A stretch of 64,000 nt of DNA from Chryseobacterium gleum (GTDB lineage Bacteria > Bacteroidota > Bacteroidia > Flavobacteriales > Flavobacteriaceae). Of this stretch, positions 7,277 to 59,532 are shown in pieces (within the stretch, counting starts at the first letter, position 1; each line of letters begins with the position of its first letter). Location: positions 41 to 64,040 of the forward strand of contig CAMDGB010000009.1 of the NCBI GenBank assembly GCA_945897915.1, in the 5' to 3' direction. Position numbers and translations under genes: made by a program. The notes below the pieces were generated by a model, which worked only from the letters and a program-made list of their open reading frames with translations, was not told the DNA's origin and searched no databases.

Positions 7277-7303
7277 TTACGATTTACGATTTACGATTTA
7301 CGA
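7277..7303. repeat. Heptamer tandem repeat (TTACGAT)x3 + TTACGA
   Basis: Perfect repeat read directly. Confidence 0.95.
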
Positions 7304-20126: not shown

Positions 20127-20150
20127 TGTCAATCTTAACTTGTTTCTGAT
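20127..20150 (+). repeat. REP-like palindrome copy
   Basis: TGTCAATCTTAACTTGTTTCTGAT; 2 mismatches to the 41098-41122 copy. Confidence 0.65.
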
Positions 20151-20164
20151 ATTAAAAAGTATTG

Positions 20165-20204
20165 AAAACCTGTGATGCTGAACTAAATTCAGAATCACAG
20201 GTTT
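20165..20204 (+). terminator. Intrinsic terminator built around a REP-like core
   Basis: AAAACCTGTGATGCTGAA-CTAAA-TTCAGAATCACAGGTTTT after the M13 gene. Confidence 0.8.
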
Positions 20205-20231
20205 TCTCTTTTTATACCGTTTCATTTTTTA

Positions 20232-41087: not shown

Positions 41088-41097
41088 TAAATGTTAG

Positions 41098-41122
41098 AAT
41101 CTGAAACAAGTTCAGATTGACA
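41098..41122 (-). repeat. REP-like palindrome copy
   Basis: Reverse complement TGTCAATCTGAACTTGTTTCAGATT. Confidence 0.8.
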
Positions 41123-57173: not shown

Positions 57174-57226
57174 AGTTAATAGTTGATAGTTCAACTTTTC
57201 ACTTTTCACTTTTCACTTTTCACTTT
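57174..57226. repeat. Head-to-head heptamer arrays (AGTTRAT)x2-AGTT / (ACTTTTC)x4-ACTTT
   Basis: Read directly between the rfbB stop and rfbA start. Confidence 0.9.
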
Positions 57227-58129: not shown

Positions 58130-58681
58130 ATGAATTTTATAGAGACAAAATTAAAAGGCTGTTTTATTTTAGAGCCAAAAGTAATACAAGATGACCGCGG
58201 TTATTTTATGGAAAGTTTCAACGAAAACACTTTTTCTGAAGGCGTAGGACAAAAAGTAACTTTTGTACAAGACAATCAGTCGTTTTCTTCAAAAGGCGTT
58301 TTACGTGGTTTACATTATCAAACAAGGGAACATGCACAAGCAAAATTAGTACGCGTTTTACAAGGAGAAGTATTAGATATTGCGGTTGATTTAAGACCTA
58401 ATTCACCGACTTTTGGACAATACGAAACGGTACTTTTAACAGCTGAAAATCAAACTCAATTTTTTATTCCAAGAGGTTTTGCCCACGGGTTTTTAGTGTT
58501 GAGCGATACAGCAACTTTCTTTTATAAATGTGATAATTTCTACAATAAAGAAAGTGAAGGCGGATTGATTTATAATGATGCATCTGTAAATATTGATTGG
58601 AATTTTCCAATTGAACAACTGATTATTTCAGAAAAAGATCAAATATTACCCACTTTAGACAACGCAAAAAAAGCATGGTAG
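58130..58681 (+). CDS. rfbC: dTDP-4-dehydrorhamnose 3,5-epimerase
   Basis: DDRGYFME, VQDNQS, LRGLHYQ, GFAHGF. Confidence 0.97.
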   Translation: MNFIETKLKGCFILEPKVIQDDRGYFMESFNENTFSEGVGQKVTFVQDNQSFSSKGVLRGLHYQTREHAQAKLVRVLQGEVLDIAVDLRPNSPTFGQYETVLLTAENQTQFFIPRGFAHGFLVLSDTATFFYKCDNFYNKESEGGLIYNDASVNIDWNFPIEQLIISEKDQILPTLDNAKKAW

Positions 58682-59532
58682 TTTTAGTAACAGGCGCAAA
58701 CGGACAATTAGGACAAGCTATCCGGTCGGTTGTAGGAAATTATCCTTCAATCGATTTTGTATTTTGTTCTTCATCAGAGTTAAATATTACAGATTCGTCA
58801 AATTGCGAGTCTGTTTTTGAAAAATATAAACCTCAATTTTGCATTAATGCAGCTGCTTATACAGCTGTTGACAAAGCGGAAACGGAATCAGAAAAAGCAT
58901 ACGCTATAAATGTTACAGGAGCGCAAAATTTAGCTTCAGTTTGTAAAGCGCACAACACCGTTTTATTGCATGTTTCAACCGATTTTGTTTTCGACGGCTT
59001 AGCAACACAACCTTATTCAGAAGGCGCTGTTCCAAATCCAACAGGTGTTTATGGAGTAACCAAATTACAAGGCGAACAAGCCATACAAAACACTTGGGAA
59101 AAGCATTTTATCATAAGAGCCTCTTGGGTATATTCGCAATTTGCCAATAATTTTATGAAAACCATGTTGCGATTGGCATCGGAAAGAGACAGTATATCTG
59201 TGGTTTCAGATCAAATCGGAACACCTACAAATGCTATAGACTTAGCGGAAACTTTAGTAAAAATAATACAATATTGTCATGCTGAACTTGTTTCAGCATC
59301 TAACTACGGAATTTACAACTTTAGTAACGAAGGACACTGTTCTTGGTACGATTTTACCAAAGAAATATTTAAAGTAAATAACATTTCCATAAATTTACAA
59401 CCTATACCAACATCCGCATATCCCACACCCGCAAAAAGACCAGCGTATAGTGTTTTGGATAAAAGTAAGATTAAAAAGGTTTTTGGTGTTGAGGTGAAAG
59501 ATTGGAAGGAAAGTTTAATAAAAGTAAAATGA
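58675..59532 (+). CDS. rfbD: dTDP-4-dehydrorhamnose reductase
   Basis: TGANGQLG, NAAAYTAVDKAE, STDFVFDG, YGVTK, DQIGTPT. Confidence 0.96.
   Translation: MVVLVTGANGQLGQAIRSVVGNYPSIDFVFCSSSELNITDSSNCESVFEKYKPQFCINAAAYTAVDKAETESEKAYAINVTGAQNLASVCKAHNTVLLHVSTDFVFDGLATQPYSEGAVPNPTGVYGVTKLQGEQAIQNTWEKHFIIRASWVYSQFANNFMKTMLRLASERDSISVVSDQIGTPTNAIDLAETLVKIIQYCHAELVSASNYGIYNFSNEGHCSWYDFTKEIFKVNNISINLQPIPTSAYPTPAKRPAYSVLDKSKIKKVFGVEVKDWKESLIKVK
59275..59301 (+). repeat. REP-like palindrome embedded in frame in rfbD
   Basis: TGTCATGCTGAACTTGTTTCAGCATCT encodes CHAELVSAS; same family as intergenic copies at 20127, 30873, 41098, 41231. Confidence 0.8.

What the first reader, a model, noticed from the sequence alone, without database searches (positions are those of the whole stretch)
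59275..59301. REP-like element inserted in frame inside rfbD, adding the peptide CHAELVSAS
Seen: a 27-nt (9-codon) copy of the intergenic palindrome family, with an intact 8-bp stem (ATGCTGAA/TTCAGCAT), between KIIQY and NYGIYNFS; frame and catalytic motifs are intact. Established: palindromic elements inserted in coding sequence are known from Rickettsia (RPE). Inference: a permissive surface loop of RfbD captures repeats, so selfish DNA is contributing protein sequence; the intact stem suggests a recent event.
Basis: partly seen in the sequence, partly recalled or inferred. Interest (0 to 1): 0.65.

Follow-up and report, generated by a model that had tools for sequence, protein, structure and literature searches.

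The report
Hairpin repeat translated inside RmlD loop
A 27-base hairpin repeat that normally sits just after genes in this freshwater Flavobacterium lies in frame in a tolerant loop of the rhamnose-pathway enzyme RmlD; this kind of event is already known, but here related species fill the same loop with other short repeats.

Summary
Window 59275-59301 is a consensus-perfect copy of a 27-nt family, TGTCA-NN-CTGAACTTGTTTCAG-N'N'-TCT. The 2.1-Mb genome holds 37-49 copies, depending on the mismatches allowed, and the reversed-pattern control finds none.

Copies between genes behave like REPs. They lie 7-50 nt after stop codons, mostly between convergent genes and never between divergent ones, often as inverted doublets, and the NN stem pair covaries.

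The rmlD copy is read as CHAELVSAS at the end of a helix and in the loop leading to the next strand. Six more copies lie in frame in other conserved genes: Kdo transferase, YggS, an IcmF-like mutase, an SDR-like protein, a flavin oxidoreductase fusion and a radical-SAM protein.

Across Flavobacterium the same RmlD loop holds this hairpin, related hairpins, or four tandem heptamers of varying unit. KdtA, YggS, IcmF and MnmE loops behave the same way, and elements nest inside one another.

The "recent event" inference is not supported. Orthologues whose DNA differs by 13-33% carry the same element. Third-codon identity is 0.91 inside the element and 0.56 in the rest of the gene.

No RAYT was found, and the way the element spreads is unknown. 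It is a new member of a known kind (RPE-like or intragenic REP). The scan has found similar cases in other flavobacteria.

The parts
59275..59301 (+). 27-nt hairpin element (here called PAL1), sense orientation, translated as CHAELVSAS (RmlD residues 201-209)
   Evidence: exact match to the family consensus TGTCA-TG-CTGAACTTGTTTCAG-CA-TCT
59279..59286 (+). left stem arm ATGCTGAA
59292..59299 (+). right stem arm TTCAGCAT
58675..59532 (+). rmlD (rfbD), dTDP-4-dehydrorhamnose reductase, 285 aa, intact
   Evidence: AF2 model with an alignment has mean pLDDT 95.
41096..41122 (-). intergenic PAL1 copy (variant with AT/AT stem pair) between convergent genes
20127..20153 (+). decayed PAL1-like copy: 2 mismatches in the core and the 3' TCT lost
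20164..20206 (+). 19-bp-stem terminator-like hairpin followed by a T run; its tip (20172-20198) is PAL1-like with changed flanks

Best explanation
The 27 nt are a true copy of a lineage-specific REP-like hairpin family whose normal place is the 3' untranslated end of genes. In rmlD the copy is a translated passenger. It extends helix 187-202 by two residues and forms the loop that leads to strand 212-215, a place where RmlD from other bacteria has about eight fewer residues. This loop has carried short genomic repeats through most of the genus Flavobacterium, and the occupant turns over. It can be this hairpin, sister hairpin families with the same TGTCA and TCT ends, or arrays of four tandem heptamers. 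New repeats land in or beside old ones, recombination between rmlD alleles moves the cassettes about, and selection keeps only stop-free frames and a modest loop length.

Shown: family membership, the REP-like placement between genes, in-frame copies in seven genes, alternative occupants at the same site in five further genes, nesting of elements, and nucleotide-level conservation of the element.

Inferred: that the peptide is functionally neutral, that old repeats attract new ones, and how the element moves. No RAYT or other dedicated enzyme was identified.
For: Family: 25 hits against 0 in the control. 48 copies have at most 1 change in the 15-nt core, with a covarying NN stem pair and conserved flanks. 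37 hits against 0 in the control, and the family is present in 23 of 101 genus genomes, about twelve of them with 8-42 copies.

Placement: of 42 intergenic copies, 30 lie between convergent genes, which make up 15% of intergenic bases. Nine lie in the gene's orientation 7-49 nt after a stop, and none lie between divergent genes.

Coding copies: seven lie in long conserved ORFs, using only 2 of the 3 stop-free frames. Only 6 of 49 copies are coding, in a genome that is about 87% coding.

rmlD loop: all 120 closest homologues (80-92% identical) carry a repeat-type loop: 73 TTCGACW heptamers, 29 CAACACC-like heptamers, 14 PAL1, and 4 other hairpins. The DNA of 59 orthologues shows the same. Distant orthologues and PDB 1VL0 lack about 8 residues here.

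Other loops: the same-site pattern appears in KdtA, which has a clean +21 nt case and four other palindromes, in YggS, in IcmF and an SDR-like protein, and in MnmE, which has heptamers only.

Nesting: a clean 30-nt insertion lies inside another element, and PAL1 sits next to remnants of the heptamer array that sister lineages carry.

Conservation and structure: third-codon identity is 0.91 in the element and 0.56 in the gene. In the model the insert residues lie at the helix end and in the loop, and their 10-residue block has pLDDT 87.
Against: No enzyme or mechanism for spread was found. The genome is 99.9% complete and has no PF01797 match, and a small GIY-YIG gene does not track the family.

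Net length changes of 0 to +8 codons do not fit a simple fixed-size cut-and-paste.

The rmlD gene is a recombination mosaic. The scatter of loop types on the gene tree therefore cannot be counted as independent insertions.

The strong conservation of the element at synonymous sites could mean it has a function rather than being a passenger.

Confidence: 0.72

Rival explanations
1. The intragenic hairpin is functional at the RNA or DNA level, for example as a pause site, a processing or attenuation site in the rfb operon, or a binding site for the factor that uses the 3'-UTR copies. On this reading, selection keeps it intact.
For: All nine third-codon positions are identical in 8 of 10 orthologues that carry the element, while the gene's third positions are 56% identical. 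In G023 the stem is kept through a compensatory G>T / C>A pair. The rmlD copy has the same orientation on the mRNA as the 3'-UTR copies.
Against: Alleles 85-90% identical in DNA carry unrelated heptamer arrays in the same place. Coding copies in other genes are antisense as often as sense. The G023 variant is simply another common family variant, so it may be a different copy rather than a compensated one. Translating ribosomes would melt an 8-bp, AT-rich stem of -8.7 kcal/mol.
Confidence: 0.13
2. The loop is a contingency (phase-variation) site. Tandem heptamers slip, shift the frame and switch rhamnose synthesis off and on, and the hairpin is just one non-switching allele.
For: The period of 7 is not a multiple of 3. 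Array units change in concert, for example ACATTCG against ACTTTCG in all units, which implies frequent slippage. The gene serves a surface polysaccharide. Period-7 arrays are over-represented in the genome: 23, against 7 of period 6 and 5 of period 8.
Against: Arrays have only about four units. Among the roughly 180 orthologues examined, every loop is in frame. The same arrays sit in the housekeeping gene mnmE. The window's own allele has no heptamers.
Confidence: 0.07
3. The insertion is recent and specific to this strain.
For: The stem is perfect and the match to the consensus is exact.
Against: The identical 27 nt sit at the same codon position in L062, L063 and L072. Near-identical copies are in L028, L069, L082, L088, L098 and L109. 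The rmlD DNA of these orthologues is only 67-87% identical to the window's.
Confidence: 0.05
4. The resemblance arose by chance in an ordinary homologous loop.
For: None beyond the short length of the element.
Against: The match is 27 of 27 positions to a family with 0 control hits. Synonymous sites are conserved rather than diverged.
Confidence: 0.01

Closest known systems
Intragenic REPs (Di Nocera, De Gregorio and Rocco 2013, PMC3733652) and REPs in general
   Same: Both are short (20-40 nt) stem-loops present in tens of copies. Both lie mostly downstream of genes, between convergent or co-directional genes, often as inverted dimers. In both, a minority of copies is read in frame inside known genes.
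   Different: There is no GTAG or CGTC tag; the ends are TGTCA and TCT. The stem is AT-rich. No RAYT gene is present in the genome. Di Nocera et al. do not cover the genus; the word Flavobacter does not occur in the paper.
Rickettsia palindromic elements (RPE; Ogata et al. 2000, as cited in PMC3733652)
   Same: In both, palindromic repeats are inserted in frame into many unrelated conserved genes and the proteins appear to remain functional.
   Different: RPEs are about 100-150 bp and add 30-50 residues. This element is 27 nt and adds 9 residues. It has a clear home at 3' gene ends, and the host is a free-living bacterium.
Small dispersed repeats (SDR, 21-27 nt) and tandem heptamers (STRR) of Nostocaceae (Elhai et al. 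2008, Genome Res 18:1484). The paper is not held in the library. It is described here from memory and from citations in PMC5861425, PMC2884548 and PMC3116915.
   Same: Both are very small (21-27 nt) hairpin-forming dispersed repeats. Both occur in genomes that are also rich in tandem heptamers, and in both the elements are found inside other repeats and occasionally in genes.
   Different: The phylum and the sequences differ. The details of Elhai's evidence could not be checked here.
REPINs with RAYT (Bertels and Rainey 2011, PMC3116915)
   Same: Both form inverted doublets, here about 35-45 nt from start to start. Eight loci in this genome hold a doublet, one of them two pairs.
   Different: No RAYT is present. 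Single copies are as common as doublets.
Over-representation of heptameric simple repeats in bacteria (Mrazek et al. 2007, as summarised in PMC4692102 and PMC4679880)
   Same: Both show an excess of period-7 tandem arrays, mostly between genes.
   Different: Here arrays of 3-4 units also lie in frame in conserved enzymes. A shared set of units recurs across species, and the arrays alternate with hairpin elements at one codon position.

Membership tests
REP (repetitive extragenic palindrome) | Short (about 14-40 nt) stem-loop sequence | tested here: met
   The element is 27 nt, with an 8-bp stem and a 5-nt loop
REP (repetitive extragenic palindrome) | Many copies per genome sharing a consensus | tested here: met
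   37-49 copies against 0 in the control
REP (repetitive extragenic palindrome) | Mostly extragenic, at 3' gene ends, between convergent or co-directional genes | tested here: met
   30 copies are convergent, 12 co-directional and 0 divergent; 6 of 49 are coding (using crude gene calls)
REP (GTAG/CGTC super-families of Di Nocera 2013) | GTAG or CGTC tetranucleotide at one end | tested here: not met
   The conserved ends are TGTCA and TCT
REP/REPIN with RAYT | A cognate Y1 (IS200-like) transposase gene in the genome | tested here: not met
   PF01797 has no match in a 99.9% complete genome, while the control genomes do match
REPIN | Inverted doublets as the replicating unit | tested here: inconclusive
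   Eight loci hold inverted pairs, but most copies are single
Rickettsia palindromic elements | In-frame copies in several unrelated conserved ORFs | tested here: met
   Seven ORFs carry copies
Rickettsia palindromic elements | Element length about 100-150 bp and sequence families of Rickettsia | tested here: not met
   The element is 27 nt and the host is a Flavobacterium
Mobile element (any) | Filled and empty orthologous sites | tested here: met
   In KdtA, three species are +21 nt while most are short. In YggS, L158 differs from L157 by a clean 30-nt insertion.
Mobile element (any) | Constant insert size, target-site duplication, or an identified enzyme | tested here: not met
   The net change varies from 0 to +8 codons, no duplication is seen and no enzyme was found
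Contingency (phase-variable) locus | Out-of-frame length variants of the repeat tract among relatives or reads | tested here: not met
   Every loop examined is in frame. Read-level data could not be obtained.
RmlD (TIGR01214) | Equivalog score above the cut-off and the catalytic T/Y/K residues present | tested here: met
   322 bits against a cut-off of 224; T102, Y126 and K130 are invariant

The most novel reading that the evidence does not exclude
Hairpin elements and four-unit heptamer arrays may be two products of one undescribed process in Flavobacterium. This process would write cassettes of about 27-30 nt into existing repeats, drawing on a shared set of heptamer units; the arm of this hairpin, GTTTCAG, is close to one such unit, GTTTCAA. 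It would rewrite the same protein loops again and again, faster than the surrounding gene diverges. No known transposase would be involved.
Probability: 0.2. Interest if true: 0.8.

Novelty: new member of a known kind. Interest (0 to 1): 0.5.

Why it matters
The case shows that in a free-living bacterium with a small genome, 3'-UTR hairpin repeats and heptamer arrays routinely become part of housekeeping enzymes. A few structurally tolerant loops act as long-lived landing pads whose content changes faster than the gene.

This has three practical consequences:
- Such loops mislead alignments and trees, and spurious peptides such as ELVSAS and LKQVQHD recur across unrelated proteins.
- The loops mark positions where enzymes tolerate insertions.
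- They offer a defined set of sites (rmlD, kdtA, yggS, icmF, mnmE) for measuring how very small repeats spread when no known transposase is present.

Tried and rejected
- **RAYT.** A search for a RAYT gene (PF01797) found none.
- **GIY-YIG nuclease, a lead from earlier scan notes.** The genome has UvrC, an exonuclease fusion and one 107-aa GIY-YIG gene lodged in a duplicated tRNA 3' end. Homologues of the small gene occur in 37 of 101 genus genomes, and in only about half of the PAL1-rich ones, so there is no association.
- **Rfam.** At gathering threshold over the window, Rfam matches only a tRNA.
- **Single-sequence AF2 fold.** It failed, with pLDDT 33. It was redone with an alignment and reached pLDDT 95.
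- **Tree mapping of loop types**. This was at first read as recurrent insertion. The weight was reduced after the gene proved to be a recombination mosaic.
- **Literature.** The element's DNA and peptide strings appear in no paper of the library. Elhai 2008 could not be read.
- **Sequencing-run look-up.** The look-up for read-level polymorphism was unavailable.
- **30-nt nested element.** A pattern for it was too strict to census that family; it gave 3 hits in each of two genomes.

Full report
**Observation.** Window 59275-59301 is TGT CAT GCT GAA CTT GTT TCA GCA TCT, in frame in the ORF 58675-59532 (+). It is read as CHAELVSAS between KIIQY and NYGIYNFS. The arms 59279-59286 and 59292-59299 form a perfect 8-bp stem with a 5-nt loop. 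As RNA the hairpin folds at -8.7 kcal/mol (z = -2.0), so it is a real but modest hairpin. The ORF is rmlD: TIGR01214 scores 322 bits against a cut-off of 224. It is the last gene of an rfbB-rfbA-rfbC-rfbD run.

**The family.** The window lies in a 2.14-Mb, 57-contig, 31.5% G+C genome, 99.9% complete. Its nearest rmlD relatives are freshwater Flavobacterium MAGs.
- The 23-nt core of the rmlD copy occurs 25 times at up to 3 mismatches, and the reversed pattern occurs 0 times.
- 48 sites have at most one change in the 15-nt core. Aligned, they give TGTCA-NN-CTGAACTTGTTTCAG-N'N'-TCT.
- The NN pair covaries (TG/CA, TT/AA, AT/AT, AG/CT, AA/TT). A sub-variant has CCGAA/TTCGG arms.
- The rmlD copy equals this consensus at all 27 positions.
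- In 101 sampled genomes of the genus the family occurs in 23. About twelve of these have 8-42 copies, and they include the closest relatives of this genome. The control is 0 in every genome.

**Where the copies sit.** These figures use crude gene calls with 87% coding.
- Of 49 copies, 42 are intergenic: 30 between convergent genes, which hold only 15% of intergenic bases.
- Nine lie in the orientation of a co-directional upstream gene, 7-49 nt after its stop. Three are in the opposite orientation.
- None lie between divergent genes.
- Eight loci hold inverted doublets about 35-45 nt from start to start.

This is the classical REP pattern of a transcribed 3'-end stem-loop. No Rfam family matches.

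**Coding copies.** Seven copies lie deep inside long conserved ORFs.

| Gene | Peptide read from the element |
|---|---|
| rmlD | CHAELVSAS |
| FAD/Old-Yellow-Enzyme fusion | CNVELVSAS, at the domain linker |
| B12/radical-SAM protein | SHSQLVSEP |
| Kdo transferase | EMLKQVQQD (other strand) |
| SDR-like NAD-binding protein | EMLNQVQHD (other strand) |
| YggS | EILKQVQHE (other strand) |
| IcmF-like mutase | EILKQVQND, in the MeaB-mutase linker (other strand) |

Reading the sequence directly, three of the six frames of the element contain a stop. The coding copies use two of the three open frames.

**The RmlD loop in relatives.** Distant orthologues (at most 51% identical) and the solved C. 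acetobutylicum enzyme 1VL0 lack about eight residues exactly here, at query residues 200-207. Within Flavobacterium the loop is almost always long and made of repeats.
- Among the 120 closest homologues (80-92% identical), 73 read DxRxSTFD. That is four tandem TTCGACA or TTCGACT units.
- 29 read HPTPNTQH-like, which is CAACACC four times. 14 carry PAL1 and 4 carry related hairpins.
- DNA of 59 orthologues shows PAL1 in ten. It also shows sister hairpins with the same TGTCA and TCT ends but other cores.
- The heptamer units seen there are CAACACC, TTCGACW, CTACAAC, CTCACAA, CAACAAC, GTTTCAA, CATCACC and AAATCCC. All units of an array change together.

On a tree built with the loop masked, loop type is not clustered at all. 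However, sliding identity shows that the gene is a recombination mosaic, and that PAL1 travels with an upstream ETLVKII haplotype in the closest clade. Allele shuffling therefore explains part of the scatter.

Among the ten PAL1-bearing orthologues, third-codon identity is 0.91 inside the element and 0.56 elsewhere. One orthologue (G023) keeps the stem through a G>T / C>A pair. The element is thus kept or renewed as nucleotide sequence, and it is not a strain-specific novelty.

**Other genes show the same rule.**
- KdtA: most species are short. G000, G061 and G023 carry antisense PAL1 (+21 nt). Four other species carry four different perfect palindromes at the same place.
- YggS, IcmF and the SDR-like protein: one site each holds PAL1 or other TGTCA-type elements, in either orientation, with a net change of only +2 to +5 codons. 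The SDR-like site is the structural equivalent of the RmlD site, a helix followed by the last Rossmann strand.
- Nesting: a 30-nt element sits cleanly inside another element in YggS of G046 (L158 against L157), and similarly in IcmF, the SDR-like protein and an rmlD heptamer array. PAL1 in L088 and L082 abuts remnants of the heptamer arrays carried by sister lineages.

**Heptamers.**
- The genome has 23 exact arrays of period 7 with at least three units. It has 7 of period 6 and 5 of period 8.
- Seven of 46 shorter-threshold arrays lie in long ORFs. One is (TTTCGAC)4 in mnmE, read as VSTFDFRLST.
- In mnmE orthologues that loop is either empty or holds three to four units of TTCGACT, CTTGAAA, TTATCCA or CAACAAC.
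- Three unit classes are shared between this genome's arrays and the rmlD loops of other species, where 0.2 would be expected by chance.

**Structure.** With a 43-sequence alignment the AF2 model has mean pLDDT 95. The helix spans 187-202, residues 203-211 form a loop with a short turn, and the strand spans 212-215. The 201-210 block has pLDDT 87.

**Interpretation.** The element is a REP-like 3'-UTR hairpin that has become a translated passenger in a tolerant loop. Such loops are long-lived landing pads where repeats succeed one another. How the repeats move is not known. There is no RAYT, and a tRNA-lodged GIY-YIG gene does not track the family. A function of the intragenic hairpin and phase variation by heptamer slippage remain minority possibilities.

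**Relation to what is known.** Intragenic REPs and RPEs are described in PMC3733652. Heptamer excess is described in PMC4692102 and PMC4679880. The cyanobacterial SDRs of Elhai 2008 could not be read here. No paper in the library holds these element or peptide strings. Earlier notes of this scan report similar in-frame hairpins in other flavobacteria, so this is a further member of a recurring class.

**Limits.**
- Read-level data were unavailable.
- Gene calls for the census are crude.
- Genomes other than G000 were sampled, not exhaustively searched.

Noticed in passing
window 57194-57226 and 7277-7303: Perfect heptamer arrays: (ACTTTTC)x4.7 ending 7 nt before the rfbA ATG, and (TTACGAT)x4. 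They are two of the 23 exact period-7 arrays in the genome. The unit TTACGAT, equivalent to AAATCGT on the other strand, recurs at three further loci.
   Followed up: partly
G000:C36:1170-1198 (L265:1170-1198): (TTTCGAC)x4 lies in frame in the G domain of mnmE, read as VSTFDFRLST. Orthologues have this loop empty or filled with other heptamer arrays.
   Followed up: yes
rmlD residues about 108-112 (window about 58996-59010) in relatives L034, L087, L092, L096, L097, L032, L089: A second loop of RmlD, after STDFVFDG, holds TGTCA-type hairpin elements in either orientation in other species. It is empty in this window. Another clade has a conserved 17-residue insert there.
   Followed up: partly
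G000:C8:75165-75485 (L262:1390-1713, minus strand): A 107-aa GIY-YIG gene sits between two direct copies of a tRNA 3' end plus a hairpin. This matches the tRNA-lodged unit noted earlier in the scan. Tandem runs of 5-6 such genes occur in G013 and G060.
   Followed up: partly
L158, L222 (G046); L034, L244 (G017): A 30-nt element (CGAGGC..GCC-GAAC.G.GCGAAG) is found only nested inside other repeats, and it adds 10 residues to YggS, IcmF, RmlD and an SDR-like protein. A strict pattern found 3 hits in each of these two genomes (two of the six are the nested copies in YggS of G046 and in the SDR-like protein of G017) and none in G000 or G023.
   Followed up: partly
YggS orthologues L152 (G019), L154 (G023): The 'empty' YggS site reads ATTCTGAATTC (L152 continues ATTCTGAATTCAGAA), that is the two PAL1 arms without the loop. 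This is either a collapsed element or a chance proto-site.
   Followed up: no
window 20127-20206: A decayed PAL1 copy is followed by a 19-bp-stem terminator-like hairpin whose tip is PAL1-like. Both are preceded by GAAAACCTGT-like words.
   Followed up: no
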